From: Escherichia phage VEc33 | Length of the DNA stretch: 64,000 nt | Sequence record: NC_048818.1 | Reading direction: 5' to 3' (one strand) | Shown: one piece after another, positions 3,760-30,380 of the stretch | How positions within the stretch are numbered: the stretch's first letter is position 1 | Layout: every line of letters begins with the position of its first letter | Translations under genes and position numbers: made by a program | The notes under the pieces: generated by a model | What the model was told of the DNA's origin: nothing | The model's database searches: none | What the model saw: the letters and a program-made list of their open reading frames with translations, nothing else

Positions 3760-3766
3760 TTAAATT

Positions 3767-4320: not shown

Positions 4321-4351
4321 AGTACATTTTTAAAAATTCTGTTTGGAGGAG

Positions 4352-4720: not shown

Positions 4721-4733
4721 TATTTCCTTAATT

Positions 4734-4810
4734 TGGTAGGGGTGGTGGGATTCGAACCCACAAAACCTGAATTTTAAGTCCAGTACCTATGCCAATTCGA
4801 TTACACCCCC
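4734..4810 (-). tRNA. tRNA with anticodon loop CUUAAAA (UAA, reads UUA Leu) but short variable arm
   Basis: RC: acceptor GGGGGTG/CACCCCT, anticodon stem CTGGA/TTCAG, T-arm GTGGG-TTCGAAT-CCCAC, CCA; 77 nt, type-I architecture. Confidence 0.55.
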
Positions 4811-4817
4811 GTGTAGT

Positions 4818-5006
4818 TTAGTCAATTACTTTTGAGGCTTCAAGGTAGTCGATATAGTGTATGTTTTCTACCGTAATCATATAATCTGCCACTTTATCCA
4901 TAGCTTGGGCTTCAGAGGTAGCTCTGGCTAACCTATATCCTTTTTTATATTCATCCTGGTATTCTCTATCTTGGATAAACACAACATAAACTATATATAG
5001 ATCCAT
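4818..5006 (-). CDS. hypothetical protein
   Basis: 62 aa ORF. Confidence 0.4.
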   Translation of the reverse strand: MDLYIVYVVFIQDREYQDEYKKGYRLARATSEAQAMDKVADYMITVENIHYIDYLEASKVID

Positions 5007-5023
5007 TTGTTACCTCTATTTAA

Positions 5024-5101
5024 TTTGGTGGCTCCCCGAGGATTCGAACCTACGTACCTTCCGGTTATGAGCCGGGTGCTCATACCATATGAGCTTGAGA
5101 A
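5024..5101 (-). tRNA. tRNA-Met-type (anticodon CAU; loop CUCAUAA)
   Basis: RC: acceptor GGTTCTC/GGGAGCC (two G-U pairs), D-arm GCTC-ATATGGTAT-GAGC, anticodon stem CCGG/CCGG, TTCGAAT T-loop, CCA. Confidence 0.6.
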
Positions 5102-5107
5102 CCAAAA

Positions 5108-5197
5108 TCTGGCGGAAGAAGTGGGAATCGAATCCACAAGGCTATATTTCAAACCGACAGATTAGCAATCTGCTGCAATACCGTTATGCTATTCTTC
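5108..5197 (-). tRNA. tRNA-Ser (anticodon GCU), type II
   Basis: RC: acceptor GGAAGAA/TTCTTCC, anticodon stem GCAGA/TCTGT with loop TTGCTAA, long variable arm, T-arm GTGGA-TTCGATT-CCCAC, CCA. Confidence 0.65.
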
Positions 5198-5219
5198 CGA
5201 ATTTATAAGATATATTATA

Positions 5220-5738
5220 TTAGAAATTTAGCTTCATAGCAAGAAAATTTTTCAAGTTTTCGGTAGACATCTCATCTACGTCTACAGGAGAAACAAAGCC
5301 GTTTAATTTTCTAGCAAATTTTTCACCCGCAGGATCATTATCCCCGACAGCTACCAATTTAAAAGGTAATAATTTCAGTTGCTTTAATAACGCTTTTCCT
5401 GGAGAAGAACCCAACATTGCTAGGGCTGGATAACCAGCGTTATGTAACGCAACTGCCTTAAATACAGATTCAGCGATCAATACTACTTTTTCATCTCCAT
5501 TGAGAGTTTCTAGTCCCCATACACACTGGGTAGTAGAATAAGTAAAGTATTTAGCTTCAAAAGGGCACTTACCATGACCTTTTGGAGCAGAAGGATTATA
5601 AGTTTGGTAGCCCCTCAACATCCCAGAGAAATCATATAACGGGACTGTTAGCCATCCTTCCGGACTTAACCAGCAATGATATTTTTCTGTATCAAATCCT
5701 CTAGATAAGAGGTGCTGTGTTAGCTCATCAACATTCAT
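5220..5738 (-). CDS. Toprim-domain protein (primase/topoisomerase-like fold)
   Basis: 172 aa; conserved Glu in VVLIAESVF and DxD in VAVGDNDPAGEKF. Confidence 0.5.
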   Translation of the reverse strand: MNVDELTQHLLSRGFDTEKYHCWLSPEGWLTVPLYDFSGMLRGYQTYNPSAPKGHGKCPFEAKYFTYSTTQCVWGLETLNGDEKVVLIAESVFKAVALHNAGYPALAMLGSSPGKALLKQLKLLPFKLVAVGDNDPAGEKFARKLNGFVSPVDVDEMSTENLKNFLAMKLNF

Positions 5739-5770
5739 ACCTGGTTCCTCTCTCTCAAATTTATAGATAT

Positions 5771-5799
5771 ATTATACAGAGAATTTAGCATTCAAGCAA
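5771..5799 (-). promoter_or_regulatory. sigma70-type early promoter
   Basis: attata 5771-5776 and aagcaa 5794-5799 on plus strand. Confidence 0.5.
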
Positions 5800-5915
5800 T
5801 CAAATTTTTTAACTTTTTAGAGGAAAATCATAGGGCACTTAAGGGTAGCAGATAAGTGGTGAGGACCAAAATTTGTGACCCCACTAAAAATCCGGGGGCA
5901 ATTTTTAAAGACCCC

Positions 5916-5944
5916 TTGACATTTTCGCTGGGGTAGTGTAAAGT
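5916..5944 (+). promoter_or_regulatory. strong sigma70 promoter (TTGACA, extended -10 TGnTAAAGT) for the plus-strand cassette
   Basis: TTGACATTTTCGC box at 5916; same -35 context recurs at 21943 and 34125. Confidence 0.5.
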
Positions 5945-6006
5945 ATATGTTATGGATGAGTGATCAAAGAGACACACATTTTCTATATACTAGGAGGTGT
6001 CAAAAA

Positions 6007-6978
6007 ATGACAGAAGAAGTAGCTAAGAGTCCTGAAACCGTCGCTAGCGTAGCAGCAGAACTGCATCGTCACGAGGAATCAGATAAGAAAAAGTGGGAGA
6101 AGGTCAGAGCCTACGAAGAAAAACATCGTGTTCACGATGAAGAAGATGATGATGAACATTGTCATAAATATGGAAAACATAAAATGCAAGAACCAGTAAA
6201 CGTATTCACTAGTGGCTTCCCTGGCCTACTGGGTGGTTACCCAGCAAACGCAAGTGCTTTCGGTGGTGAAGGTATGGGACTATTCGGAGCTATCCTAATC
6301 GGTGCTCTATTAACAGGCGGATTTGGTGGTTTTGGTGGTTTTGGCCGTGGTGCTGGCGTTGCCGCTGAAGGGACTGCTGTGGACGCGATCCTTTCTAACC
6401 AAGATACTGCAAGTATTCTAGCTGCAATCAATACTACTCGTACAGAAGCTAACCAGGGCACTGGGGCTGTTCTAAGCGCAGTAAACGGTGTGGGAGCTGC
6501 TCAAGCTGCTAGCACTCAGCAAGTTCTGACTACTATCTACGGTACAGGTGCTAATCTGTCAAACCAGATCTGTGCTGAAACTCGTAACGTTATTCAGGGT
6601 CAGTTCGATCTTTCTCGTCAGATGGATCAATCTTTCGCTGCTAACCAGATCGCACGTGCTCAAGATAAATTTGACTCTGCTCAGATTGCTTTCCAGCAGT
6701 CTATTCAGACCAATAACCAGTTTGCCGCTGTTCAGGCTCAGATGTGTGCTAACCAGAATGCTATCGAACGTCAGCTTGCCGAATGTTGCTGTGAGCTTCA
6801 GACTGCAATCGCTGGTGTAACTACTGCACGTATCCAGGACGAACTGAATGAATGCCGTCTGCGTGAAGCAATCGCTGCAGGTAGCGGTGCTAACGGTCAG
6901 GTAATTAATCAAATCGCTGTAAGTCTTGGTGCTATCACTCAGACTCTGGCTGGTCTGCAGGCTAAACTGCCGGCTTAA
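6007..6978 (+). CDS. low-complexity protein: His/acidic N-terminus, Gly-rich hydrophobic segment, Ala/Gln/Asn-rich region with Cys cluster
   Basis: ATG 6007 after TAGGAGGTG RBS; GLFGAILIGALLTGGFGGFGGFG; ECCCEL; GC-richer, codon usage of a highly expressed gene; opposite strand to neighbours. Confidence 0.55.
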   Translation: MTEEVAKSPETVASVAAELHRHEESDKKKWEKVRAYEEKHRVHDEEDDDEHCHKYGKHKMQEPVNVFTSGFPGLLGGYPANASAFGGEGMGLFGAILIGALLTGGFGGFGGFGRGAGVAAEGTAVDAILSNQDTASILAAINTTRTEANQGTGAVLSAVNGVGAAQAASTQQVLTTIYGTGANLSNQICAETRNVIQGQFDLSRQMDQSFAANQIARAQDKFDSAQIAFQQSIQTNNQFAAVQAQMCANQNAIERQLAECCCELQTAIAGVTTARIQDELNECRLREAIAAGSGANGQVINQIAVSLGAITQTLAGLQAKLPA

Positions 6979-6999
6979 TATTAAGGGGAGGAGCCCATT

Positions 7000-7416
7000 A
7001 TGAGTAAATATGGTTTTGTAAATAACGGACTTAATCAAAGTATGGGCTCCCAGCAGCCCGTTCCGGGACTGGATAACCCTTACCTACAACAGTTGCAACA
7101 GCGTTTAGCAGAAGCGCAACAGATGCAGCAACAACTCCAGCAAAACCCTGGAAGTGTGAGTCCTATGCAAATGATGCAGCAAATGAGCGGGCAGTCGCAA
7201 ATGCCTCAACAAATGCAGCAACAGGTGCCTCAGCAGCAAGTTCAGCAGCAAACCCAACAACCGCAGGTTTCTGCGGAAGGACAGGCAGTACTAGCCCTTT
7301 TCGAAGACTTCGCAAAGACAGAGGATGGGAAGCAGCTTGTATCACTTATGGGTAAGTTTAATAGCTTCTGCCAAAGCCAAGTTGCAAAAGCTCAAAATGG
7401 TGGTAATAACTCCTAA
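7000..7416 (+). CDS. Gln/Met-rich low-complexity protein
   Basis: 138 aa; RBS AAGGGGAGGAG; QQMQQQLQQNPGSVSPMQMMQQMSGQSQMPQQMQQQ. Confidence 0.55.
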   Translation: MSKYGFVNNGLNQSMGSQQPVPGLDNPYLQQLQQRLAEAQQMQQQLQQNPGSVSPMQMMQQMSGQSQMPQQMQQQVPQQQVQQQTQQPQVSAEGQAVLALFEDFAKTEDGKQLVSLMGKFNSFCQSQVAKAQNGGNNS

Positions 7417-7425
7417 GGAGGAATT

Positions 7426-7620
7426 ATGTGTTGCAGAAAATCTGTTTCGTGCTGCCCAATGCCTGTAGCACGTTGTTGCTCTCCAGCAATGTTTACGCAA
7501 ATACCGGCGTTCAATCCGTTTGCCTTTAAGCCTACTCTTATCCTGCCCCCTAGAGTAGATTTTCAGTCAAGATTGGCCTCCCGTATGGGTGGTTGCTGTA
7601 ACAAGAGTATATGGTTCTAA
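7426..7620 (+). CDS. small Cys-rich protein (CC motifs)
   Basis: 64 aa; RBS AAGGAGG; MCCRKSVSCCPMPVARCCSP...GGCCNK; followed by terminator. Confidence 0.5.
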   Translation: MCCRKSVSCCPMPVARCCSPAMFTQIPAFNPFAFKPTLILPPRVDFQSRLASRMGGCCNKSIWF

Positions 7621-7633
7621 AGAACCAAACAAT

Positions 7634-7672
7634 AAAGCCCCTAGTCGAAAGACTTAGGGGCTTTTTCTTTTG
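7634..7672 (+). terminator. rho-independent terminator of the plus-strand cassette
   Basis: hairpin AAGCCCCTAGTC-GAAA-GACTTAGGGGCTT followed by TTTTCTTTT. Confidence 0.7.
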
Positions 7673-7675
7673 CCT

Positions 7676-7716
7676 TAAATACAGAAAAGCCCGCGCTCTC
7701 GGAGGAAACGCGGGCT
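7676..7716 (-). terminator. rho-independent terminator after the SPFH gene
   Basis: hairpin AAGCCCGCG...CGCGGGCTT followed by U-run on minus strand; convergent with 7634-7672. Confidence 0.6.
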
Positions 7717-7740
7717 TGGTTCGAAGATTACGTGTAACTA

Positions 7741-8688
7741 TTACTTGTTACGCATATCCATGATCATTTGACCATCGTAACCAGTACCTACTACAGTCTG
7801 AGGCACACCACCTTGATATTTCTGAGCACGAATCATATCAACTTCCAGTTGTTTCCAACGAATCATCTCAGGAGTAATGGTACGTTGCAGTGCGGCGTTA
7901 GCTTCAGCTTCTTTCTTAGCTGCGTACAGTTTAGCATCTGCGTCACGTTCATTAGCGATAGCTTGGTTGTTGCGAGCTTCACGATCTGCTTCTGCTTGTT
8001 TAACTTTTTGCTGTGCTTCCTGTTCAACACGAGCTAATTCAGCTTTAGCAGCATTAGCCTGTTCTTCACGAACTTTGGTATTCTGTACCTGTTCCATGAT
8101 TACCGGTGGCAAAGTAATATCCTGAAGGAATACCTGCTTAACTGTGTAACCATATGGGCGTGCGTACTCTTCAACTTCCTGTTGAATTGCAGTTTGCAAT
8201 TGAGCCTGAATTTTAGCATCAAACAAATCTTGTGCTTTAGGTACAGACTTACCAAACTCACGAATAGTAGACAGTAATTTTTCAGTTACATATTTGTCTA
8301 ACGCTTGATCCTGAGTACCTGCATTAATACGGTTAATCGGTGCCTTAGAACCATCAAACTGCAACATAACAGTCAGATCAACAGTGGATTTAAACTTATC
8401 CTGACTAGGAACCTGAAGTTTATCTAATTTTACAGCAATATCTTTAGTACTAAAAGTATCGAAAGAAGCAAAAGGATTTACAATATGAAAGCCGGGTAAT
8501 ACTGGATTAGGGTCTACTTTACCCAGGAATGTTTGAGTTTTAACCGTACCATCAGAAACAATAGTATATGAATTAAAAGCTAGAATTAAACCTGCTAAAC
8601 CAACTACAGCACCAATCCCCCAACGTTTAATAGTACGAATTACTTTCTGCTCAGAAGTTAGTTCTTTCATATTTTTAGTATTAAACAT
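7741..8688 (-). CDS. SPFH/band-7 (HflC/prohibitin-like) membrane protein
   Basis: 315 aa; N-terminal TM WGIGAVVGLAGLILAF, SPFH core, Ala/Glu/Gln-rich coiled-coil. Confidence 0.65.
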   Translation of the reverse strand: MFNTKNMKELTSEQKVIRTIKRWGIGAVVGLAGLILAFNSYTIVSDGTVKTQTFLGKVDPNPVLPGFHIVNPFASFDTFSTKDIAVKLDKLQVPSQDKFKSTVDLTVMLQFDGSKAPINRINAGTQDQALDKYVTEKLLSTIREFGKSVPKAQDLFDAKIQAQLQTAIQQEVEEYARPYGYTVKQVFLQDITLPPVIMEQVQNTKVREEQANAAKAELARVEQEAQQKVKQAEADREARNNQAIANERDADAKLYAAKKEAEANAALQRTITPEMIRWKQLEVDMIRAQKYQGGVPQTVVGTGYDGQMIMDMRNK

Positions 8689-8720
8689 ATATTTCCTTTG
8701 TTTTAGTTACAGTTAATAAA

Positions 8721-8795
8721 ATTGGCCGAGGTGACAGGATTCGAACCTGCATAAAGGAATTTAGAAGACTCCTGCCTATCCCTTAGACTACACCC
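8721..8795 (-). tRNA. tRNA-Arg (anticodon UCU)
   Basis: RC: acceptor CGGGGTG/CACCTCG, anticodon stem GGAGT/ATTCC with loop CTTCTAA, T-arm GCAGG-TTCGAAT-CCTGT, CCA. Confidence 0.6.
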
Positions 8796-9299
8796 CGTTT
8801 AAGTATTTTTAAGAACTCTCGTAAAAACTCTTAAAAATACAGACGATACCGGGAGAGTCATAAGTCTCACTCATTAAGTATTTCAAGACAAAATACGGTA
8901 ACGTCTATTATTTTCCAGTTTAAGTCAGGGTGACTTAGTGGTTATGTCCTGCGGTATATTGAGGACTCGGTTAGGCTTGGGGTCATGACTTCCCGCCTTT
9001 TGCTGCTACTCAACAGGAGTTATCGCGAATTACCTGTGCTATTGTGCACCATTAGTGACATCTCTCATGTCAGCATTTCCCACTTTGTGGATAGCTTGAA
9101 AAACTACTCCGATATGGAGAAAGAACTTCACTACCCTAGAATACCTTCTAAAGTTCTTCTTTAGCCTGGACATAGTTAAATCGTAATAAAACTATTCAGC
9201 AGACTGGTTGGTTAGTCTGGAACCAACTACCGCGTGGTTTAGGCAGTGCGCAACTAACCTCGGAAGCTTTTACGTTAAAAGCATCAGTTATCCAGTTCT

Positions 9300-9372
9300 T
9301 ACCGACCGTAGGATTCGAACCTACATCTTCCACCAGTTACGGCTTGATAATACCAATTATACTAGGACGGCA
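9300..9372 (-). ncRNA. tRNA-like element (T-arm GTAGG-TTCGAAT-CCTAC; anticodon undetermined, no CCA)
   Basis: clear T-arm on minus strand; acceptor and anticodon stems could not be folded cleanly by hand. Confidence 0.4.
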
Positions 9373-13191: not shown

Positions 13192-13219
13192 AACTTATCC
13201 TTTATTGTGTAGAAAACTA

Positions 13220-13456
13220 TTAAAGAGCTGTCTCTTTAATAGACTCCCACTTCTTGGGGTCTTTAAAACCAGGAAGCATATCCTCACTGACATCCCAGTT
13301 CTCCTCCATAGAGAGGTCGGGCCATTCATTCCAGCTACCTTCCAGCTCTTCATAACAGGTATCCATTACCTCATGACTAGAAAGTCGTGTATAATCCCTA
13401 GCTGACTTATGGGTGCTAGCACGGTTAAAATCATTCTTTGCTACAAAATTACGCAT
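13220..13456 (-). CDS. hypothetical protein
   Basis: 78 aa ORF. Confidence 0.4.
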   Translation of the reverse strand: MRNFVAKNDFNRASTHKSARDYTRLSSHEVMDTCYEELEGSWNEWPDLSMEENWDVSEDMLPGFKDPKKWESIKETAL

Positions 13457-13497
13457 AGTTTCTCCAAATAAGAGGGGCTTTCGCCCCCTGATTTAAA

Positions 13498-13713
13498 TCA
13501 CTTGCCCAGCAGTTTAAGGATATTTTCCATAATAGTTTGGGCAGATTTTTCACTCTTGTTGGTTTCAGCCAACTTTAAAGCGAGTTCTTCCTGCTGTTTC
13601 TGAATATCCGCAGCAATTTTTTGATCAGCCTCAATACGAGCTTGAAGCTCATCAGTGATAGTGGTAAAGGAAGCAACGATTTCAGTAACAGAACGTGGTT
13701 TCTTAGAGAACAT
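13498..13713 (-). CDS. hypothetical protein
   Basis: 71 aa ORF; GC-rich hairpin (GGGGGCGAAAGCCCC) downstream at about 13468-13492. Confidence 0.4.
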   Translation of the reverse strand: MFSKKPRSVTEIVASFTTITDELQARIEADQKIAADIQKQQEELALKLAETNKSEKSAQTIMENILKLLGK

Positions 13714-13776
13714 AAAAATATCCTTGATTAGTTAGAGAATTAGTAGATTGTAGGGGCAGAAGCCCCTATTTATCTA

Positions 13777-20876: not shown

Positions 20877-21638
20877 TTACACCTTCCCCATGTCTTTAAA
20901 AATATCGTAGAATGCTTTAGACTCAGCAGAACGAACGTTATCAATCAATTCGATCATTGAGAATGGAGCATTTTCATATTTCTCATAAACTTCCATAAGA
21001 AGAGCTAGACCTGAGTCACCTTTAATATCTTTCTGAGCTATATCTCCGCAGATAATTAAACGGCAGTCTTGTCCTACACGAGTTAGGAGACAAACCATTG
21101 CCTCAACGGAAATATTCTGAGCTTCATCGACAATTACATAGGAGTTGTTGAAAGTTCTGCCACGAGCATGTTCTATAGCCAAAAATTTAATTTTCTGACG
21201 TTCGACATATCCCTTATAGGCATGATCACCGATGGCCCATTTCATACCATCAGCTATTGGCTCCAACCAAGGCTCTAGCTTTTCTGCTAGATCACCAGGA
21301 AGCATACCAAGAGACTTACCTAGAGGTTCATTAGGACGTACGAGGATCACTTGCTCAATATCTGAGTGAATGTCTACGAGTTCCTGAGCTGCAAGAACAG
21401 ACGGGATAAAGGTTTTACCTGTACCTGGCTCACCGATACCCACAGTCACTGTGTTGTTCTTGATCATATTGATATATGATTTTTGCTCTCGGTTTTTACC
21501 TACTAGGGATTTAGCAACTGGGTTAGCGTAATCATTAGAAAAATCAGCCTGAATTACGTTATTCTCATATTTGTTGCCACGCTTTCTTGAACCATTGCGG
21601 TTCTCTCTTTTTTGACGTGCTTTTCCCATAAATAACAC
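20877..21638 (-). CDS. phoH: PhoH-like ATPase
   Basis: 253 aa; Walker A GEPGTGKTF, Walker B VIVDEAQN. Confidence 0.85.
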   Translation of the reverse strand: MLFMGKARQKRENRNGSRKRGNKYENNVIQADFSNDYANPVAKSLVGKNREQKSYINMIKNNTVTVGIGEPGTGKTFIPSVLAAQELVDIHSDIEQVILVRPNEPLGKSLGMLPGDLAEKLEPWLEPIADGMKWAIGDHAYKGYVERQKIKFLAIEHARGRTFNNSYVIVDEAQNISVEAMVCLLTRVGQDCRLIICGDIAQKDIKGDSGLALLMEVYEKYENAPFSMIELIDNVRSAESKAFYDIFKDMGKV

Positions 21639-21702
21639 TCCTATAGTGTACTTCGCTAACAGAGGATCAACAAAAAGATCTTGTTTATCAACTTACAAAT
21701 AT

Positions 21703-21731
21703 ATTATACCAGTATATGCAGTAAAAAGCAA
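21703..21731 (-). promoter_or_regulatory. sigma70-type promoter for the phoH operon
   Basis: attata 21703-21708 and aagcaa 21726-21731. Confidence 0.5.
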
Positions 21732-21843
21732 CTACAATTTTAAATAAGCCTATGATATTGCATTTAAATAAAAAATTTGCTTGCTTTTAACTGGAAATGT
21801 ATGGTATTAGATAATCATTTTATACCGCGTACATAGGCGCGTG

Positions 21844-21872
21844 ATTATACTATTTTAAGTACAAAATAGCAA
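21844..21872 (-). promoter_or_regulatory. second upstream minus-strand promoter in the divergent hub
   Basis: attata 21844-21849 and tagcaa 21867-21872. Confidence 0.45.
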
Positions 21873-21942
21873 ATAAATTTTTTAACAATTTGCTAACTTT
21901 TTAGCACAGATCAAAATACAATATCTAAGAGAAAAATTATAT

Positions 21943-21970
21943 TGACATTTGCCCTTGAATAAGCTATAAT
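21943..21970 (+). promoter_or_regulatory. consensus sigma70 promoter for nrdD (TTGACA-16-TATAAT)
   Basis: TTGACA 21943-21948, TATAAT 21965-21970, about 30 nt before the RBS AAAGGAGGG. Confidence 0.6.
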
Positions 21971-21999
21971 AGTAGTCTTAGTTAGAAAAGGAGGGTATA

Positions 22000-23874
22000 A
22001 TGAATCGCAATGATGAACTAAAATACAAGGAAATGCAGTCCTTGATTAGAAACTGCAAAGAAATTATTGAGGGTTCTGCTGATGAAGAGCTTCTCTTTAA
22101 TAATGCGAATAAACCCTCTGAGCGTTTCCCTACACAAAGGGATATGCTCGCAGGGGAATTGAGTAAATATCTGATTCTAGAAGAAATGCCAGTTCAGATT
22201 CGAAATGCTCATATGATTGGAGATATTCATTTCCATGATGCTGATTACGCTGCTTTAGGCATGACTAACTGTTGCCTAGTAGCCCTGGAAGATATGTTGA
22301 AAAATGGTATGAAAGTTGGTAATGCTGAAATTAGCACTCCAAACTCTATCACTACTGCGGCTGCTATTACAGCTCAGATTATCACACAGGTTAGCTCCCA
22401 TCAGTATGGGGGTACTTCTGTAGACCGATTAGATGAAGTATTGGCTCCTTATGTTCGTAAGTCTTATGATAAGAATCATGCGTTTGCAAAACGTTGGACT
22501 AAGGATGAAGCCAAAGCATCAGTAATGGCTACGGAGATGACTGAAAAAGAAGTCTATGATGCTTGTCAGGGTCTAGAGTATGAAATCAATACGATGTTCA
22601 ACTCTAATGGTCAGAGTCCATTTATTACCTTTGGTTTTGGTCTAGGAACTTCTTGGGAAGCACGTCTAGTACAGAAAGCAATACTGAAAGTACGTATGGA
22701 TGGCTTAGGTATCAATAAACGTACAGCTATCTTTCCGAAACTGGTGTTTGTTCTGCGTGATGGCGTAAATATGAAGCCAGGGGATGTTAATTATGACATC
22801 AAGAAGTTAGCTATGAAATGTACTGCTGAACGTATGTATCCAGACTATATCAGCTATGATAAGGTTGTGGAAGTTACTGGTGACTATAAAGTTTCTATGG
22901 GCTGCCGTTCATTCCTAGCTGCTGCAGAAGATGGTGAAACTGCCGGTCGTAATAACTTAGGTGTTGTTTCTGTAAACTTGCCTAGAATTGCTATCGAAGC
23001 TGAAGGGAATATTGATCTATTCTTTGATTTGCTTGAGCTACGTGTTGATACAGCGTTAAAAGCGTTGGAGTGGAGAGTTGATCGCTTAAAATACATTCAA
23101 GCTAAAGCCGCGCCCATCCTCTATATGTCAGGAGCCTTTGGGTTACGCTTAGGGCCTGATGAATATGTATTCGATCATTTCTATAACCGTGCTTCTGTAT
23201 CTCTGGGGTATATTGGTTGCCATGAAATGCTACAGTTCATGTTTGGCAAAGATGTAGACACAATGTCCGAGACTTGCATCAAGTTTGTTCAGCGTGTATT
23301 GCAGTACATGCGAGATAGAGTCGATCAGAAGAAGGAAGAGACTAAGTTAGGTTATAGCCTGTATGCTACACCGTCAGAGTCCCTATGCGATCGGTTTTGT
23401 CGTCTAGACCGTGAATATTTCCCGGAGCATGAAGATATTCTGTCTAAAGGATACTACACTAACTCGCACCACCTTGATGTAGAACGCAAAGTTGCTCCCA
23501 ATGTGAAATTTGATTATGAATCTAATTTTACTCCGATTGCTTCTGGTGGGTGCATTTCCTATGTAGAACTACCAGATATGAAACGATTCCCAGATGCACT
23601 GGAATGGGTTATTAATTATGCTGCTAGTAAAGTTCATTACTTCGGTATTAATACTCCAGTGGATTCTTGTAGTAAATGTGGATTCTTAGGTGAAACAATA
23701 GCATCTGAAGATGGATTTAAGTGCCCTATCTGTGGTAATCATGACCCCGAAACTCTTGAAGTAACTCGTCGAGTTTGTGGGTATCTTGGAAATCCGGGTG
23801 CTCGTCCATTTAACCCCGGCAAACAGCACGAGGTGATGGGCAGAGTGAAACATCAGGATATTCGAGCTAAATAA
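22000..23874 (+). CDS. nrdD: anaerobic ribonucleoside-triphosphate reductase (class III)
   Basis: 624 aa; C-terminal Zn ribbon CSKCGF...CPICG and glycyl-radical motif RVCGYLG. Confidence 0.9.
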   Translation: MNRNDELKYKEMQSLIRNCKEIIEGSADEELLFNNANKPSERFPTQRDMLAGELSKYLILEEMPVQIRNAHMIGDIHFHDADYAALGMTNCCLVALEDMLKNGMKVGNAEISTPNSITTAAAITAQIITQVSSHQYGGTSVDRLDEVLAPYVRKSYDKNHAFAKRWTKDEAKASVMATEMTEKEVYDACQGLEYEINTMFNSNGQSPFITFGFGLGTSWEARLVQKAILKVRMDGLGINKRTAIFPKLVFVLRDGVNMKPGDVNYDIKKLAMKCTAERMYPDYISYDKVVEVTGDYKVSMGCRSFLAAAEDGETAGRNNLGVVSVNLPRIAIEAEGNIDLFFDLLELRVDTALKALEWRVDRLKYIQAKAAPILYMSGAFGLRLGPDEYVFDHFYNRASVSLGYIGCHEMLQFMFGKDVDTMSETCIKFVQRVLQYMRDRVDQKKEETKLGYSLYATPSESLCDRFCRLDREYFPEHEDILSKGYYTNSHHLDVERKVAPNVKFDYESNFTPIASGGCISYVELPDMKRFPDALEWVINYAASKVHYFGINTPVDSCSKCGFLGETIASEDGFKCPICGNHDPETLEVTRRVCGYLGNPGARPFNPGKQHEVMGRVKHQDIRAK

Positions 23875-24477: not shown

Positions 24478-24640
24478 TCCAGAAAACATGCTTATTGAGC
24501 AATGGAACTTTGGTTATAATGCTGGTGTAGCTACTTGTATTGCTAGATTGGATACGCTTATTAAGCAAGAAAAGGTACGCCCTGAGGAAGCAATTTTACT
24601 CCGAAATATTATCGAAGGATTTAAGCAAGGAATCGTATAG
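24446..24640 (+). CDS. hypothetical protein
   Basis: 64 aa from ATG 24446 with GGAGGAG RBS; overlaps previous ORF end. Confidence 0.4.
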   Translation: MDFLNQNLKSNPENMLIEQWNFGYNAGVATCIARLDTLIKQEKVRPEEAILLRNIIEGFKQGIV

Positions 24641-25476
24641 TGCGTAGATTAATTATTATTAGCGGTGCAGGTTTGAGTGTTGAAAGTGGTGTACGAGCTT
24701 TTCGTACTGATACTGCTAGTGGTAAAGCATTGTGGGATGATTATGATCTAGAAGAAGTATGTAATATTCATGCCTTTCGTGGTAATTTTTATCATAAAAC
24801 CCATATGTTTTACAACAAACGTCGTGAAGAGCTAAAAACTGTTGAACCCAATCTTGCACATTTGCGTATTGGTGAATGGTATAAACAATATCCAGGTCAA
24901 GTAGTAAACTTGACTACCAACGTTGATGACCTTATTGAGCGTGCTGGCGTTCCACATAGTGACATTCTGCACATTCACGGATATTTAAAAGAGGTTGTTG
25001 TAGCTGATAGCTACAATAGTAGCAATAAACGGATTATTGATGTAGGGTATAATTCTATTGATCCAGATGATTATAAATGGGTTAAACCTAATGTAATCTT
25101 CTTTGGAGAACATGCTCCTGCATACGCAGAAATGTATAATGTTTTTGATGGTATTACCAGTCAAGATATGATCATTGTGGTTGGTTGCTCTAATCAAGTA
25201 ATTAACTTCTACTGGGAATTATTTCCTGTTCTTAATTTGACTGCTGCCAAACTAATGGTAGTTAACTACTATGATAGTGCCATAGCAGCAGAGCCAGGCT
25301 ATCAAGGTATGACTCGTAGTGAGATGTACCAACTGGAAGATCGTGGTATTCCTTACTGGAGTAATGGTGCGGTAGATGCTTTTAGTGACCCTGATTTTAT
25401 TGCTCGTGTGGAAGCCCATTTAGAGGGTAGACCTTATGTGCCGGAGAGAAGGGGAAACAGATATGTCCATAGTTAA
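24640..25476 (+). CDS. Sir2-family (sirtuin-like) NAD-dependent enzyme lacking the canonical Cys4 zinc ribbon
   Basis: 278 aa, GTG start after AAGGAA; GAGLSVESGVRAFR, TTNVDDL, HIHG; no CxxC...CxxC. Confidence 0.65.
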   Translation: MRRLIIISGAGLSVESGVRAFRTDTASGKALWDDYDLEEVCNIHAFRGNFYHKTHMFYNKRREELKTVEPNLAHLRIGEWYKQYPGQVVNLTTNVDDLIERAGVPHSDILHIHGYLKEVVVADSYNSSNKRIIDVGYNSIDPDDYKWVKPNVIFFGEHAPAYAEMYNVFDGITSQDMIIVVGCSNQVINFYWELFPVLNLTAAKLMVVNYYDSAIAAEPGYQGMTRSEMYQLEDRGIPYWSNGAVDAFSDPDFIARVEAHLEGRPYVPERRGNRYVHS

Positions 25477-26140: not shown

Positions 26141-26569
26141 ATGTTCAATAATGTATTCTCTAAAGAGGCTAACCCGATATTGGTTAATTTTTGGCGTACT
26201 CTTCCAGCCAACCTGTACAATGAGGCTATTAATGCTTTGAAAATATGGTGTGAGAATAATGAAATCTCCTTTGCTTTTAAAGGTGAGATTGAAGAGGCTC
26301 CCTGTATTGGTTTAATTGTGCAGGTGGAGGATGGTCTTGAAGAGATTGTCGGCTGGAAAGAGTTGGATGAAATGGGCTTGGTTTTTGCGTTAAACTATAA
26401 GCTGTTTATGCCCAATAAACACCGTATTGTTGTTAACTATAAAACCAATGAATCTCCTGGTTTTCAAGTTAATGAACGGTATGGTTGGTCTTACTCACCA
26501 GAAGAAGTAAATGATGGTATCCAAAAACTTCGTCGTTTTGGTTATCAAATTCCGGGTTTAACCGCCTAA
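26141..26569 (+). CDS. hypothetical protein, tandem paralog A
   Basis: 142 aa; shares PCIG, ELxxMGL(V/I)xALN(Y/F)xLF and (Q/Y)(I/V)PGL motifs with 26579-26971. Confidence 0.5.
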   Translation: MFNNVFSKEANPILVNFWRTLPANLYNEAINALKIWCENNEISFAFKGEIEEAPCIGLIVQVEDGLEEIVGWKELDEMGLVFALNYKLFMPNKHRIVVNYKTNESPGFQVNERYGWSYSPEEVNDGIQKLRRFGYQIPGLTA

Positions 26570-26578: not shown

Positions 26579-26971
26579 ATGGAACAAGTATATTGGCGTC
26601 AGATCGACCCTAGTTTGGTGAAGCGTGCAGAGAAGCTGCTACAACGTTGGTTGGGGGTAAGACAAGCCTCCTTCACTTTTCCGGAGCAGCAAATAGACGA
26701 TCCCTGTATTGGTGTTTTCCTATCAGGCTACGCTAGGGAATGGGAATTGGATTGGAATGAGTTGTCTGCTATGGGTTTAATTGTTGCCCTAAATTTCTCT
26801 TTGTTCCATACACGTGGTTTGGCTATATGTCGTGTGCCTGATGACGGTTGTTCGCCCCATCTTTTACAGGTGGAAGATGATATTTGGGAGTACACTCCAG
26901 ATATTCTCAAAGAAGCTAAAGAACAATTAAATCGTGCTGGGATTTATGTTCCAGGCCTGAACGATGAATGA
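26579..26971 (+). CDS. hypothetical protein, tandem paralog B
   Basis: 130 aa; paralogous to 26141-26569. Confidence 0.5.
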   Translation: MEQVYWRQIDPSLVKRAEKLLQRWLGVRQASFTFPEQQIDDPCIGVFLSGYAREWELDWNELSAMGLIVALNFSLFHTRGLAICRVPDDGCSPHLLQVEDDIWEYTPDILKEAKEQLNRAGIYVPGLNDE

Positions 26972-26987
26972 GTTTTATTAGCTGAAC

Positions 26988-27016
26988 TCTGATTACCGAG
27001 CCATTTTGACTCGGTT
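26988..27016 (+). terminator. hairpin terminator after the paralog pair
   Basis: ACCGAG-CCATTTTGA-CTCGGT followed by TTTCTC. Confidence 0.45.
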
Positions 27017-27062
27017 TTCTCTATGTTCAAAGACACTGGTAGCAGCTCCTGGAAAAATCTAC

Positions 27063-27091
27063 TTGCAGGATGCCCAAAATCTTGATATAAT
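27063..27091 (+). promoter_or_regulatory. sigma70-type promoter followed by an unusually long (about 500 nt) leader
   Basis: TTGCAG 27063-27068, TATAAT 27086-27091, conserved TATTTATATTGAATTGAGAG downstream element but no ORF start. Confidence 0.5.
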
Positions 27092-27590
27092 ATTTATATT
27101 GAATTGAGAGACATTAGTAAAAATTGATTTTGCTAATTTTTCTTGTTTACAATCCGCGATACGGAACAGTTAGGCTGCCCCATTAAGGGTTGTTTTAACT
27201 GTTACGTGTTAGTTTTTAAACAAATAGTTAATAGAATACTTAGCGATCTGCGTCCCGTAGGAACCCTGGTAAGGCCTCGAAGCAACCTAGATAGAGGTGG
27301 TTGTGAAGTGAGACGGGAGGAGTGAAAAACTCCGAGACGTGATTCTGTAAGTTATATTGCATCTAGTATGAGCTAGTATATGAAGCATTAGGTGAGCAAA
27401 TCTGGCTTAGCGGCCATCCTCAAGGATTTGTGCGGTATAGCAAAGCAGCAGCGCAGCGTGAAAGTGGAAGTTGCCACCCCACTTCAGTATTTGCGATTAA
27501 TTTGTTGAGAAATTGACAGTAACAGTTGTTCTATTCTTTCTGAATAGTCCTAAAGAAAACTTATTTCATTTCCAACACAGGAGTATTGTT

Positions 27591-30380
27591 GTGTTTTCAA
27601 TCCTACAAGGTCATGCAGGATTTCATCGCGATTTAGCCACAGGCAATTGGCGAGAAGTTAAAGCAGAAGATTATCTTTTTGCTAAAAGATTTTCCTCAAA
27701 GCATCCTGAAGGTAAACCAGCTTCAATGCCCTTCAAGTTTGATGTAATTGACGAAGTTGATCCTCAAACCCTAGTAGAAATGCTTCCCATTATGAGACGT
27801 TTAACGTCTGACCCTCATATCGTTGCGGTACGAGGTCGATGTCTTGCACCTAAAAATAATGTGCGGCGTAAGAAGGGCAACTTTAATGTATCTAACCCAA
27901 GTCATATAATCGCAATGGATGTGGATGGTATTGTAGATACAGGTGGTTGTAACAAGTTTGATCTTGTTGGCATGGCTCGACATATTATTAGAATGTTAAA
28001 TAGTATTAGTGAGGATATGTTCCCTCTTGATGCAGGGTTTATCGCTCATGCATCATCTTCGGCTGGGCTAAAACCAGGTATCCGAATGCACTTAATACTA
28101 GAATCTAATGTTAAAGTAACTCAGGGTCAAATCAAATTCTTATTTACATCTATCAACGAAAGTAGTAGACAAAAGTATGGCTTTGATATTGCCGACCTAG
28201 CTTATTACTCTTCCGTACAGCTTCATTATTTTGCAGATCCGTTATTTATCGATGGTATAGTAGATCCGTTTAAAGCGGAGGGTGCTTCACGTCTGGTATT
28301 TGTTAAGGGTTCTAAAGTAAATTTACCCAATAATCTGGTTGACTATGAAACAACTAGAGGAGAGTTTAAAGAGGAGTTCTACTCCTTACTCGATCAAATT
28401 AAAGGTAAAAAGGCTGCCTCTGATAAAGTAGAAGAAACCATCAGCGAGTTAGAAGAAGCCGAGGATGGAGTGTATCTACGTATTATTCCTAAACTCTATC
28501 ACAGAGCTTTAGAGGATGGTGTTGATTTTGCATGGCTAGAAAAAGAAATCCGCCCAGCCTTATCAGAATATATTGCAACTAAAGATAATAGTCGTAATAT
28601 TCAAGACTACTTTAATAACGGTCGTAAACAGGCTCTGAAAGCGTTTGTTAATAATTCTAAACGCGATATACCTGATGTTTTAAAAGGTATTCCACTTAAA
28701 AAGCTAGAAACTAATTCTCTAGAAACTGATAACTTCTTGAAATTAAACACTGTACCACCAGAAGGTTATATGACTTTTGTAAAAGCAAGTCTAGGTACAG
28801 GTAAAACCACGGCAGTTGTGCGTTGGTTAGATTCAGGGGTTATTAAAGGTAATTTCTTAGCAATTACCAATACTAGAGCACTGGTATCTTCAAATGCTAA
28901 GAAATTTAGTGCAGGACAGTATGATAAGTCTGTAGATATGCTTAATTTTAAGCGTGGTGCTATTGACCGTATGTCCACAACTATTCACTCTTTGCATAAA
29001 TTCAAGAGTTTTATTGGTCAAATTGACGCAATCTTTATCGATGAATGTGATGCAGTAATGAATGACCTATTATTCGCCCCGGTTGTTAAGCAACGTCGAG
29101 AGTGTATTCAGGTTCTTCGGGATATTCTTGCAACTGCAAAAATCATTATATTATCTGATGGGGATATTAGTGCAGAAACAATTGAAGCATATGGTTCTTT
29201 GATTGAGTTTGATAAACCGGTTGCATTTTATAATCATCACCGTAAAATGCTATCAAAAGCTCATGCTTATGAGTTTCCTGATGAATCCAGTATTTGGGTT
29301 GCACTTCAGACTTCCCTGGAGATGGGTGAGAAATCTATCCTAGTATCTGACTGTGGGCCAGATGAACTGAATGAGAAGGGCATGGCGTTGCGTCGTAATA
29401 CGGGTGCGTTAGTTAAGGAAATCCATTCAAATTCTACGTCTGATGTGGATATTAGACGTATCCTGGATTACACAACTAATGAGTTAATTGACCAACAAAT
29501 TGATTGCTTATTATGTAGTCCATCCGTAACGAGTGGTGTTGACTTCAACTATTTTGATAACGTATTCGTTATTACTAGAACCTCAAACCAAGCGCCAAAC
29601 ATGCGTTTCCAAGCAATCAGGCGCGACCGTGGTGCTCAGAATATCTATTATTTTATTGATAAATCCACTAGTGGATTCTCCGCAGGTTCTGAACAATATA
29701 ATATTGATGAAGGTTGGCTGGAGTTAGCACAGCAATTATATGCACGTCGCAGAGAGCTGGAATCTAGGAACTATACTAGTACTTTACGTTATTACTTGCT
29801 TGATCAGGGTGCAACTATTGATATTTTCAGCGAAAGCTGGGGAACTATTGAAGGTGCTGGTAAAGAGTACACAGAAGAGCGAATCAAAGCTATACTGTAT
29901 TCAACTCCTGATTATTGTGCTCCACGCCATGCAGATGCGTATGAAGCTAAACTACTTCTTGTTCGCTATTATCATCTTGAGTCTATTAAAGATGTAACAG
30001 TTGAGCATGTTGAACAATATATCAAGGATAAACCTAATGATCGAGCGGCATTCTTCCATAAAATGCACGAGATGTTTTGGGAAGATATTAAGAAGTGTTC
30101 AAATGTCACTATCAAACCATTCATAGAAGCTCTGAAAGGTAAGAAGAAAGATTTCTTCCTTAAAACAGGTCAGAGTGCTAACCCAAAATATGCGAGAATG
30201 TATCTTGGTATGATGGGTATTGGTAAGGATATGAACACTGAAAATATTGTAGACTGGTACAGAACCTATTGTAAAATCGAGTGTATGCCAATCCCGTATA
30301 AGTTTATGACTGATGAGGAGAAACATATGCATGATGAAGCAATGGCAGAGCTAGGTGCTAGAAATGACAGTGAAGAATAA
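27591..30380 (+). CDS. primase-polymerase-like / P-loop NTPase fusion (putative replication initiator, origin-binding type)
   Basis: GTG 27591 after ACAGGAGT RBS; N-terminal AEP-like IIAMDVDG...AHASSSAG; Walker A ASLGTGKTT, Walker B FIDECDAV. Confidence 0.6.
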   Translation: MFSILQGHAGFHRDLATGNWREVKAEDYLFAKRFSSKHPEGKPASMPFKFDVIDEVDPQTLVEMLPIMRRLTSDPHIVAVRGRCLAPKNNVRRKKGNFNVSNPSHIIAMDVDGIVDTGGCNKFDLVGMARHIIRMLNSISEDMFPLDAGFIAHASSSAGLKPGIRMHLILESNVKVTQGQIKFLFTSINESSRQKYGFDIADLAYYSSVQLHYFADPLFIDGIVDPFKAEGASRLVFVKGSKVNLPNNLVDYETTRGEFKEEFYSLLDQIKGKKAASDKVEETISELEEAEDGVYLRIIPKLYHRALEDGVDFAWLEKEIRPALSEYIATKDNSRNIQDYFNNGRKQALKAFVNNSKRDIPDVLKGIPLKKLETNSLETDNFLKLNTVPPEGYMTFVKASLGTGKTTAVVRWLDSGVIKGNFLAITNTRALVSSNAKKFSAGQYDKSVDMLNFKRGAIDRMSTTIHSLHKFKSFIGQIDAIFIDECDAVMNDLLFAPVVKQRRECIQVLRDILATAKIIILSDGDISAETIEAYGSLIEFDKPVAFYNHHRKMLSKAHAYEFPDESSIWVALQTSLEMGEKSILVSDCGPDELNEKGMALRRNTGALVKEIHSNSTSDVDIRRILDYTTNELIDQQIDCLLCSPSVTSGVDFNYFDNVFVITRTSNQAPNMRFQAIRRDRGAQNIYYFIDKSTSGFSAGSEQYNIDEGWLELAQQLYARRRELESRNYTSTLRYYLLDQGATIDIFSESWGTIEGAGKEYTEERIKAILYSTPDYCAPRHADAYEAKLLLVRYYHLESIKDVTVEHVEQYIKDKPNDRAAFFHKMHEMFWEDIKKCSNVTIKPFIEALKGKKKDFFLKTGQSANPKYARMYLGMMGIGKDMNTENIVDWYRTYCKIECMPIPYKFMTDEEKHMHDEAMAELGARNDSEE

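What the first reader, a model, noticed from the sequence alone, without database searches (positions are those of the whole stretch)
26975..27590. About 500-nt leader between a promoter and the primase-helicase gene: candidate regulatory RNA or origin
A promoter with the conserved downstream element (27063-27091) is followed not by an RBS and start codon, as elsewhere, but by about 500 nt without a credible ORF before the GTG start of the 929-aa primase-helicase at 27591. The leader contains local hairpins (for example GGAGT-GAAAAA-ACTCC around 27318-27336) and short direct repeats (CTAGTATGAG / CTAGTATATG at 27363-27385). Because the downstream gene looks like an origin-binding replication initiator, this region could be a replication origin, an autoregulatory leader, or a non-coding RNA.
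Basis: partly seen in the sequence, partly recalled or inferred. Interest (0 to 1): 0.45.

Follow-up and report, generated by a model that had tools for sequence, protein, structure and literature searches.

The report
Large structured leader RNA before T5 helicase
The 500-base gap in front of the replication helicase gene of this T5-like phage encodes a large, intricately folded RNA that is conserved across the T5 phage family, matches no catalogued RNA family in the libraries searched, and has an unknown job.

Summary
The window is a T5-like phage (Tequintavirus). After a terminator (26995-27020), an early promoter (-35 27063-27068, -10 27086-27091) is followed by about 490 nt with no conserved ORF before the GTG (27591) of the 929-aa T5 D2 helicase ('replication origin binding protein').

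The gap is not a spacer or an iteron origin. It encodes a folded RNA of at least 13 helices:
- a 5' hairpin;
- an invariant hairpin, AUACGGAACAGUUAGGCUGCCCCAU;
- two long-range helices that close a roughly 320-nt core;
- a three-way junction;
- a stem that differs in eight lineages but always carries the loop CUUAGCGG.

On 17 leaders, 41 of 80 pairs show compensatory double changes. Shuffles give 16.9 and slid controls give 9-17. About one pair in eight is G-U, so only the + strand folds.

A gap of similar length, headed by a promoter, precedes the gene throughout Demerecviridae. I found no Rfam, E. coli, plasmid or literature match.

Function is inferred, not shown. My estimates are a cis-acting leader controlling D2 expression (about 0.4), a co-transcribed trans-acting RNA (about 0.3), and an origin or primer RNA (about 0.15). 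No repeats or DnaA boxes support a classical origin. A primase domain could not be confirmed.

The parts
26995..27020 (+). Rho-independent terminator of the upstream operon (stem CCGAG/CTCGG followed by TTTT). It insulates the leader promoter.
   Evidence: Inverted repeat I22. Annotated as a terminator in T5 and Lindwurm. The stem covaries in Sugarland (CCAGGGG/CCTCTGG) and L033 (CCAAG/CTTGG).
27050..27110 (+). T5-type early sigma-70 promoter: A-tract, -35 TTGCAG 27063-27068, -10 TATAAT 27086-27091, predicted start near 27098, downstream element TTGAGAGA.
   Evidence: The TATAAT..TGAGAG pattern occurs 7 times against 0.28 expected. In L015, L020 and L042 a different promoter is fused at the same point, so the conserved unit starts at the transcript.
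27105..27145 (+). P1: 5'-proximal hairpin (UGAGAGA.AUUAGUAAAA / UUUUGCUAAU.UUUUCUU).
   Evidence: RNAfold of each lineage gives the same hairpin from different sequences in Sugarland, L033 and L034. 27101-27200 is 99-100% identical even to phages whose flanking genes are 62-85% identical.
27158..27184 (+). P2 / motif M1: invariant hairpin AUACGGAACAGUUAGGCUGCCCCAU with an AA bulge and an internal loop.
   Evidence: Invariant in 28 Tequintavirus and Epseptimavirus-type loci, with 1-5 changes in Sugarland, L033 and L034. The G-C to A-U compensation occurs in Sugarland, and 100% of cells are paired. In IMG/VR the motif occurs only at this locus of T5-like contigs.
27197..27205 (+). P3, 5' arm (AACUGUUAC) of the long-range helix that closes the roughly 320-nt core. 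It extends to about 27234 as an irregular helix.
   Evidence: 6 of 9 pairs have changes on both sides. Variants seen: window G-C, T5 G-U, L024 A-U, L033 AUUAUUAUACA/UGUAUAAUAAU, L034 GGUUAUUAUAUA/UAUAUAAUAACC. RNAalifold extends it to about 37 pairs in the T5 type.
27519..27527 (+). P3, 3' arm (GUAACAGUU). The extension starts at about 27497.
   Evidence: As for the 5' arm (I3/I19, 34, 63, 71).
27248..27252 (+). P4, 5' arm (CUGCG), pairing with CGCAG at 27452-27456.
   Evidence: CUGCG/CGCAG in the window; CUACA/UGUAG in L002, L012, L014, L033 and L034; CUGUG/CACAG in T5; CUAGAA/UUCUAG in Sugarland.
27452..27456 (+). P4, 3' arm (CGCAG).
27253..27318 (+). Three-way junction: P5 (UCCCGU 27253-27258 / ACGGGA 27313-27318), P6 (27265-27274) and P7 (GCAACC 27282-27287 / GGUUGU 27299-27304, with the conserved loop UAGAU.GAGGU).
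   Evidence: Independent RNAfold runs give the same junction for the window, L012, L013, L033, L034, Sugarland and the T5/Epsept type. P5 variants: CCCG/CGGG, CCCA/UGGG, UUCG/CGAA. P7 variants: CAACC/GGUUG, CAAUC/GAUUG, GGCA/UGCC.
27319..27341 (+).
   Evidence: Compensated to AGAGU/ACUCU in L002, L012 and L014. GGUC/GACC in Sugarland, GGGG/CCCU in L034. GAGAAGUG is conserved in all non-T5 types.
27351..27441 (+). P9 (27351-27360 / 27432-27441), which encloses P10 (27363-27376, weak) and P11 (27396-27403 / 27424-27431). The apical region of P11 carries invariant motif M2, GCUUAGCGGC (27405-27414).
   Evidence: P9 and P11 each have 7 pairs changed on both sides. The P11 stem differs in 8 lineages (window, T5, Epsept type, Sugarland, L033, L034, Providencia, Proteus) while the loop CUUAGCGG is kept. 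P10 has no covariation.
27462..27484 (+). P12 / motif M3: hairpin AAGUGG / CCACUU with the conserved 11-nt loop AAGUUGCCACC.
   Evidence: Compensated to AAGGGG/CCCCUU in L012, L014 and L031. The loop is conserved in Sugarland, L033 and L034. The T5 type has a different hairpin at this place. A similar motif, GAGGAAG..CACCCC, occurs in Vibrio-phage leaders.
27531..27547 (+). P13 hairpin (CUAUUC UUUCU GAAUAG). No U-tract follows, so it is not an intrinsic terminator.
   Evidence: CUAUC/GAUAG in Sugarland and CUUUCC/GGAAAG in L033. No terminator-like site lies between 27021 and 27590.
27548..27593 (+). A/U-rich spacer with little predicted structure, Shine-Dalgarno AGGAG 27579-27583 and GTG start 27591 of the D2 helicase gene (27591-30380).
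   Evidence: Only a weak local pairing (UUCC/GGAG) is not kept in all lineages.

Best explanation
The gap is the template of a large structured RNA that is the 5' leader of the D2 helicase mRNA. The RNA runs about 450 nt from the start near 27098 to helix P13 at 27547.

Shown:
- A strong early promoter, insulated by an upstream terminator, drives transcription into the gap.
- No ORF is conserved in the gap.
- The + strand folds into at least 13 helices maintained by compensatory substitutions. Three loop or hairpin motifs are invariant or nearly so: M1 27158-27184, M2 GCUUAGCGGC 27405-27414, and M3 AAGUUGCCACC.
- No terminator or sigma-70 promoter separates the fold from the D2 start in the Escherichia/Salmonella phages.

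Inferred: the RNA acts in cis on the D2 message. Hairpin P1 and the compact core would protect a 490-nt untranslated stretch from 5'-end-dependent decay and from Rho. The invariant loops would be docking sites for a protein (a phage early protein, D2 itself, or a host factor) that sets how much D2 is made from a very strong promoter. The A/U-rich spacer with AGGAG and GTG would be the regulated ribosome entry site.

The selected entity is the RNA, not a duplex-DNA site.
For: - Identity of the locus: T5-like phage, homologous gap in T5 annotated with only a terminator and a promoter.
- Structure on 17 leaders: 90% of cells paired; 41 of 80 pairs changed on both sides, against 16.9 in shuffles (0 of 500 reach 41) and 9-17 when partners are slid; covariation score 0.275 against 0.057-0.098.
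- An unsupervised RNAalifold run on 16 T5 and Epsept-type leaders gives the same architecture. It has 7 double compensations, about 20 one-sided G-U changes and 3 broken cells.
- Single-sequence folds of divergent lineages give the same three-way junction.
- The P11 stem differs in 8 lineages under an invariant loop.
- In my structure the commonest pair is G-U or U-G at 10 of 80 positions, and these would be A-C mismatches on the other strand. Fold z-score is -3.2 on the + strand.
- No ORF is conserved.
- The unit starts at the transcription start: a different promoter is fused at the same point in L015, L020 and L042.
- The leader's 5' 100 nt are 99-100% identical where flanking genes are 62-85% identical.
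- Most Demerecviridae loci examined, including Klebsiella, Proteus, Providencia and Vibrio phages, have an upstream stretch of roughly 530-940 nt; in most of them a sigma-70-like promoter lies at its start.
- No terminator lies inside the leader.
Against: - No expression platform was found. The Shine-Dalgarno region has no conserved alternative pairing with the fold, and there is no attenuator terminator.
- Known translational operators of phage replication genes are tens of nucleotides long, not about 450.
- Proteus phages have a consensus promoter (TTGACA-18-TATAAT) between the fold and the gene, so there D2 need not be read through the RNA.
- Module insertions (97 nt) and a tandem duplication are tolerated, which fits free-standing large RNAs better.
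- There are no transcript data, so the 5' end, the 3' end and any processing are predictions.
Confidence: 0.42

Rival explanations
1. A trans-acting or structural non-coding RNA that is only co-transcribed with D2. The RNA would be made in large amounts from a strong early promoter, perhaps processed from the mRNA. It would work elsewhere, for example by sequestering or scaffolding a host or phage protein, in the manner of other large phage-borne RNAs of unknown function.
For: - Size, number of helices and invariant loops resemble free-standing large RNAs more than operators.
- Optional 97-nt module insertion and tandem module duplication in VspSw_1.
- The core was swapped or diverged (32-55% identity) between phages whose flanks are 93-100% identical, while the architecture is kept.
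- Proteus phages have a separate promoter for the gene.
- No expression platform was found.
Against: - No terminator or recognisable processing site lies between the fold and D2 in the Escherichia/Salmonella phages.
- The element was found only in front of this gene in the loci examined.
- No similarity to any host RNA or to GOLLD/ROOL.
Confidence: 0.3
2. A transcription-dependent replication origin. The leader transcript would form an R-loop or be processed into a primer, as with ColE1 RNA II or the T4 ori(uvsY)/ori(34) origins. The D2 helicase, made next to it, would load there.
For: - Promoter followed by a long untranslated structured transcript directly upstream of the putative initiator helicase.
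- D2 amber mutants make no DNA, and D2 is proposed as an initiator.
- The element sits at about 48.5% of the T5 genome (58,999-59,545 of 121,750). From memory, Bourguignon et al. 1976 placed an early origin near the centre; that paper could not be read here.
- RNA G+C skew is positive in the core.
Against: - No iterons, no DnaA boxes, and no AT-rich unwinding element downstream of the fold.
- The GC-skew minimum is at 21-22 kb, not here.
- Recombitron strand bias suggests dominant unidirectional replication from one genome end in T5.
- The positive skew is no larger than in neighbouring coding DNA.
- Transcription continues into a translated gene, which is unlike RNA II.
Confidence: 0.15
3. 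A structure formed by single-stranded DNA, such as a single-strand initiation or helicase-loading signal, rather than by RNA.
For: Covariation alone cannot distinguish RNA from single-stranded DNA of the same strand. The loop TAGCGG recalls, from memory only, the CS-6 TAGCGT loop of plasmid ssoA origins.
Against: - About 12% of pairs are G-U, which are weak as G-T in DNA.
- The conserved unit begins exactly at a transcription start and tolerates promoter replacement.
- Helices span up to about 320 nt, and T5 is not known to pass through a single-stranded stage.
Confidence: 0.04
4. Small protein-coding genes, as annotated in several GenBank records (3-5 'hypothetical proteins' in the gap), or a non-functional spacer.
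For: ORFs of 60, 38 and 28 aa exist in the window. PMBT29, SCF and other records annotate them.
Against: - None of these ORFs is conserved in position or frame across leader types, and the Epsept-type leader has none of 25 aa or more.
- They lack ribosome-binding sites.
- Substitutions follow base pairing, not codons.
- The leader is more conserved than flanking genes.
Confidence: 0.03

Closest known systems
Long structured autoregulatory 5' leaders, such as the 361-nt rne leader of E. coli, and the translational operators of phage replication genes such as T4 genes 32 and 43 (from general knowledge)
   Same: An untranslated, conserved, folded RNA between a promoter and the gene it precedes. 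It has a 5'-terminal hairpin and invariant loops that could bind a protein.
   Different: Phage operators are tens of nucleotides long. No regulator, no feedback and no helix occluding the Shine-Dalgarno sequence is shown here. There is no sequence or covariance-model similarity to any catalogued leader.
GOLLD and ROOL, large ornate RNAs found in phages and prophages (Rfam families)
   Same: More than 400 nt, many helices, phage-borne, function unknown, and tolerant of inserted modules.
   Different: No match even at E=10 with permissive filters. Those RNAs usually lie near tRNA genes as separate genes. This one is a leader of a helicase gene and is restricted to Demerecviridae.
ColE1 RNA II and the T4 R-loop origins ori(uvsY) and ori(34)
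   Same: A promoter drives a long untranslated, structured transcript in a replication module. Such a transcript could prime or open DNA.
   Different: No downstream unwinding element, no evidence of a hybrid or of RNase H processing, and the transcript runs into a translated gene. The T5 origin is unmapped.
Iteron-type origins next to initiator genes (lambda ori, plasmid oriV, herpesvirus oriS bound by UL9)
   Same: It lies next to a gene whose helicase core resembles UL9.
   Different: No iterons, DnaA boxes or palindromic initiator boxes. Conservation follows RNA pairing.

Membership tests
Any Rfam 15 family (including riboswitches, GOLLD, ROOL, RNase P, tmRNA, 6S and group I/II introns) | Covariance-model score at or above the family's gathering threshold | tested here: not met
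   The whole window at gathering thresholds gives only 16 tRNA hits. The region 26800-27800 at E<=10 gives only chance hits of 12-16 bits against thresholds of 34-80.
Conserved structured RNA (generic) | Base pairs maintained by compensatory substitutions beyond controls | tested here: met
   41 of 80 pairs changed on both sides, against 16.9 in shuffles (0 of 500) and 9-17 in slid controls. Independent RNAalifold on the T5 type.
Riboswitch or attenuator leader | Expression platform: an intrinsic terminator, or a conserved alternative helix that occludes the Shine-Dalgarno sequence | tested here: not met
   No terminator-like site between 27021 and 27590. Only a weak UUCC/GGAG pairing that is not kept in L033 or L034.
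Riboswitch or attenuator leader | Ligand or effector binding | not testable with these tools
   Needs in-line probing or binding assays.
Iteron-type replication origin | Three or more direct repeats (iterons) for the initiator | tested here: not met
   Only short two-copy families. The CTAGTAT 10-mers occur twice.
Iteron-type replication origin | DnaA boxes and/or an AT-rich unwinding element beside the binding sites | tested here: not met
   No TTWTNCACA in the leader, and 8 in the window against 7.1 expected. The only AT-rich stretch (27050-27149, 25% G+C) is the promoter and P1.
Transcription-primed origin (ColE1 RNA II or T4 ori type) | Promoter followed by an untranslated transcript | tested here: met
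Transcription-primed origin (ColE1 RNA II or T4 ori type) | Persistent RNA-DNA hybrid, primer 3' end, and DNA synthesis starting at the site | not testable with these tools
   Needs DRIP, primer mapping and marker-frequency analysis. Published data on the T5 origin conflict.
Protein-coding gene | Reading frame conserved among relatives | tested here: not met
Primase-helicase (the label given to the downstream gene) | A recognisable primase domain (AEP or Toprim) N-terminal to the helicase | tested here: inconclusive
   Pfam gives only Herpes_ori_bp at 394-533. PDB searches with the N-terminal 390 aa and with a 5-sequence profile find nothing N-terminal. The invariant D110-x-D112 and H167 are suggestive only. 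No structure prediction was run.

The most novel reading that the evidence does not exclude
This may be a previously unrecognised class of large ornate RNA, present throughout the T5 family, that is the RNA component of replication initiation. The folded leader would form or guide an R-loop or primer, or would recruit the D2 initiator helicase made beside it. Its swappable core would set initiator-origin specificity. That would locate the long-sought T5 origin and describe an RNA-dependent initiation mode not known for tailed phages.
Probability: 0.13. Interest if true: 0.88.

Novelty: new variant of a known kind. Interest (0 to 1): 0.68.

Why it matters
T5 has been a model phage for seventy years, and its early promoters are standard laboratory tools. 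Its genome records nevertheless show only a terminator and a promoter here, or spurious small ORFs.

A covariation-supported RNA of about 450 nt with invariant loops sits in front of an essential replication helicase. A long promoter-headed gap occupies the same position from Escherichia to Vibrio phages, although RNA homology is shown only as far as Proteus and Providencia phages. The element would add a new family to the short list of large structured bacterial and phage RNAs.

It gives a concrete, mutable handle on two open questions: how T5 sets the level and timing of its replication proteins, and where and how T5 replication starts. It also corrects annotation, because the 'hypothetical proteins' placed in this gap in many records are very probably not genes.

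Tried and rejected
- **Rfam.** The scan at gathering thresholds and a permissive scan found nothing in the leader.
- **Metagenome scan.** The pattern ACRGAACAGTNNGGCTGC was too loose. Recurrent look-alikes (ACGGAACAGTCGGGCTGC) had no Rfam identity and were treated as chance.
- **Covariance model R1.** Built on the P5-P8 domain, it recovered only the window and its two seed relatives. It did not reach Sugarland, T5-type, Proteus or Vibrio leaders, so it neither extended the family nor found a second copy in the window.
- **Vibrio-phage leaders.** MAFFT and RNAalifold gave a noisy alignment of 4-6 sequences. Shared motifs and a few covarying hairpins are suggestive only.
- **Coding hypothesis.** Rejected.
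- **Classical origin features.** Repeats and DnaA boxes are absent. GC skew points elsewhere and mainly tracks transcription direction.
- **Host mimicry.** No similarity in 5,426 E. coli genomes or 72,556 plasmids.
- **Loop-loop pseudoknots.** M1-M2, M3-P7 and P8 against the Shine-Dalgarno sequence were examined by eye. None was consistent across lineages, so none is claimed.
- **N-terminal domain of D2.** Sequence searches gave nothing.
- **Literature.** No paper in the library mentions this leader. Bourguignon et al. 1976 is not held.
- **RNase P and ssoA resemblances.** Similarities of M1 and M2 to RNase P conserved regions, and of TAGCGG to the ssoA CS-6 loop, were recalled from memory and are not supported by any test.

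Full report
**What the locus is.** The window is a T5-like phage. The 800 bases around the finding match 524 phage records, chiefly Escherichia, Salmonella and Klebsiella phages of the Demerecviridae. Identity is 95-99% in 73 records. The finding lies between the homologue of T5.107 (stop at 26971) and the homologue of T5.108 (GTG at 27591, 929 aa).

In the T5 reference records the same gap carries only a rho-independent terminator and a promoter, named 'putative early promoter T5P32' in AY587007. It is followed by about 470 unannotated bases. Other records fill the gap with three to five 'hypothetical proteins'.

The downstream protein is the one characterised biochemically as the T5 D2 bipolar helicase. 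That protein has its Walker A motif at residues 399-406, its amber mutants make no DNA, and it was proposed but not shown to be an initiator (PMC3632103). Here only a UL9-like helicase core is detectable: Pfam Herpes_ori_bp at 394-533 and PDB herpesvirus origin-binding proteins at 388-528. The N-terminal 390 residues match nothing by sequence, so 'primase' remains unverified.

**Checking the observation.** The downstream element is real and specific. TATAAT-N6-16-TGAGAG occurs seven times in the window against 0.28 expected. In at least two of the other copies (23940 and 30629) an ATG-initiated reading frame begins within about 10-15 nt of the match.

With ORFs of at least 80 aa as the criterion, 26972-27512 is one of the two longest ORF-free stretches outside the tRNA cluster. 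The short ORFs inside it are not conserved across leader types, and one type has none of 25 aa or more.

**A long gap in front of this gene is a family trait.** I used tblastn with the protein and a scan of IMG/VR with a five-sequence protein alignment. I then measured the distance from the gene's start back to the nearest ORF of at least 75 aa, or to the nearest annotated CDS in the annotated records.

| Phage group | Upstream ORF-free distance |
|---|---|
| Escherichia/Salmonella phages | 530-890 nt |
| Klebsiella phage Sugarland | about 600 nt |
| Proteus and Providencia phages | 710-820 nt |
| Several Vibrio-phage groups | 640-940 nt |

A strong sigma-70 promoter lies at the upstream end in most lineages. 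A minority of distant relatives (34% protein identity) have an ORF directly upstream instead.

**The conserved thing is an RNA fold.** An alignment of divergent leaders shows invariant blocks separated by variable stretches that stay complementary. Three sets of results support this.

1. I wrote a structure of 80 pairs in 14 helices and counted it on a MAFFT alignment of 17 leaders. The set was twelve of the window's type, three Sugarland-like, and two contigs whose D2 is 74% identical.
   - 90% of cells are paired.
   - 41 pairs have changes on both sides. Shuffles give a mean of 16.9 (0 of 500 reach 41), and controls with partners slid by 1-3 columns give 9-17.
   - The covariation score is 0.275 against 0.057-0.098.
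   - The structure was derived partly from the window's own fold. The percentage paired is therefore biased, but the both-sides counts are not.
2. An unsupervised RNAalifold run on 16 T5-type and Epseptimavirus-type leaders gave the same architecture. It has seven double compensations, about twenty one-sided G-U transitions and only three broken cells.
3. Single-sequence folds of the central domain from seven lineages independently give the same three-way junction followed by a hairpin.

Examples of compensation:

| Helix | Variants seen |
|---|---|
| P3 | AACUGUUAC/GUAACAGUU in the window; AUUAUUAUACA/UGUAUAAUAAU and GGUUAUUAUAUA/UAUAUAAUAACC in two relatives |
| P4 | CUGCG/CGCAG; CUACA/UGUAG; CUGUG/CACAG; CUAGAA/UUCUAG |
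| P12 | AAGUGG/CCACUU; AAGGGG/CCCCUU |

The P11 stem has a different sequence in eight lineages, including the Providencia and Proteus phages. It always presents the loop CUUAGCGG. In my structure the commonest pair is G-U or U-G at ten of the 80 positions, so only the + strand, the strand downstream of the promoter, can form the fold. The minimum-free-energy z-score is -3.2 for that strand.

**Boundaries and evolution.**
- The conserved unit begins at the transcription start. In three contigs a different promoter is fused at the same point, and one contig carries both promoters in tandem.
- The first 100 nt of the leader (P1, P2, and the start of P3) are 99-100% identical between the window and phages whose flanking genes are only 62-85% identical. 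This is the most conserved stretch of the locus.
- The core (27201-27500) is only 32-55% identical between the window and T5, although their flanks are 93-100% identical. Both cores have the same length and helix plan.
- A 97-nt module flanked by TTTTTCTT repeats is inserted between P1 and P2 in four relatives of both core types.
- One Vibrio phage has a tandem duplication of a module.
- The M1 motif occurs in IMG/VR only at this locus of T5-like contigs.
- Nothing similar exists in E. coli genomes or plasmids.

**What it is not.**
- It matches no Rfam family, even with permissive thresholds.
- It has no iterons and no DnaA boxes. The only AT-rich part is the promoter and P1.
- The cumulative GC-skew minimum lies at 21-22 kb, in a divergent promoter region, not at the leader.
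- There is no intrinsic terminator in the leader.
- I found no conserved helix that would hide the Shine-Dalgarno sequence.

**How it most likely works.** What is shown is a selected RNA structure at the 5' end of the D2 message. What it does is inference. I rank the options as follows.
- **A cis-acting leader (about 0.4).** In the Escherichia/Salmonella phages the gene has no other promoter, no terminator separates fold and gene, and the element was found only in front of this gene in the loci examined.
- **A co-transcribed trans-acting or scaffolding RNA (about 0.3).** This is favoured by the size, the module plasticity, the lack of an expression platform, and the separate gene promoter in Proteus phages.
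- **An RNA-dependent origin (about 0.15).** The position beside the putative initiator is suggestive, and so is the location near the middle of the T5 genome (about 48.5%). No DNA feature supports it. Published data on T5 origins conflict: one report describes multiple internal bidirectional origins, while recombineering strand bias points to replication from one end.

**Novelty.** I found no description of this RNA in Rfam or in the searchable literature. It belongs to a known kind, large structured leader or non-coding RNAs. It has no detectable relationship to any catalogued family, and it sits in an unusual place.

**Limits.**
- The alignments rest on about 35 distinct leaders.
- Homology of the Vibrio-phage leaders is only suggested, by a shared GAGGAAG..CACCCC motif and covarying hairpins.
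- The covariance model I built did not generalise.
- No expression data were available.

Noticed in passing
L002 (DT57C) about 1700-1800; also L014, L031, L041 (insert about 4456-4545 in L014): A 97-nt insertion between helices P1 and P2 of the leader, flanked by TTTTTCTT direct repeats. It is present in both window-type and T5-type leaders and folds into its own hairpins (AUUUACGG/CCGUAAAU). It is either an optional RNA domain or a tiny mobile element with a target-site duplication.
   Followed up: partly
L011 (Vibrio phage VspSw_1) 1881-2105: Tandem duplication inside the leader: 42-43-nt blocks repeated at 147-168 nt, 74-93% identical. The blocks include hairpins capped by UUCG or CUCG loops.
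   Followed up: partly
L008, L037, L038 (Proteus phages), about 66 nt upstream of the helicase gene: A second, consensus promoter (TTGACA-18-TATAAT) lies between the long structured leader and the gene. These leaders (about 760 nt) also carry two CTTAGC(G/C)G motifs.
   Followed up: no
window 27201-27500 and 27601-28800, compared with T5 (L028): Mosaic boundary. Identity to T5 drops from 100% to 32-55% inside the leader and stays at 77-90% through the first half of the helicase gene, returning to 94-96% after about 29500. The leader core and the N-terminal half of D2 may be exchanged together.
   Followed up: partly
window 3598-3674 (- strand): One of the tRNA genes in the cluster (16 by Rfam, 14 by ARAGORN) at 167-9371 has a CTA anticodon, which reads amber codons. 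ARAGORN labels it 'tRNA-Pyl'.
   Followed up: no
window 21639-21999: A 360-nt AT-rich divergent intergenic region between a - strand gene (20877-21638) and a + strand gene (22000-23874). It coincides with the cumulative GC-skew minimum and has 20-28-nt inverted repeats. A published skew analysis of a related phage put the 'origin' in a similar area.
   Followed up: partly
window 13192-13776: Another stretch of about 585 nt with no ORF of 80 aa or more. It has G+C-rich hairpin-like inverted repeats (AAGAGGGGCTTTCGCCCC / GGGGCAGAAGCCCCTATT) 265 nt apart. Not examined further.
   Followed up: no
window 26141-26569 and 26579-26971: The two genes just upstream of the leader (T5.106 and T5.107 homologues) are paralogues; both hit phrog_2502, of unknown function. 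A Sir2-like gene lies at 24640-25476.
   Followed up: no
GenBank records of T5 relatives: Gene naming is inconsistent. The 929-aa protein is 'D2' in Wong et al. 2013, 'D1/repA' in DT57C, 'replication origin binding' in most records, and 'DNA primase' in some. NC_005859 gives the name D2 to the next helicase gene (T5.111).
   Followed up: no
H57 (Salmonella phage Kenya-K16): The leader region spans 1,136 nt instead of 628, so it carries an insertion of about 500 nt. The record annotates a hypothetical protein there.
   Followed up: no
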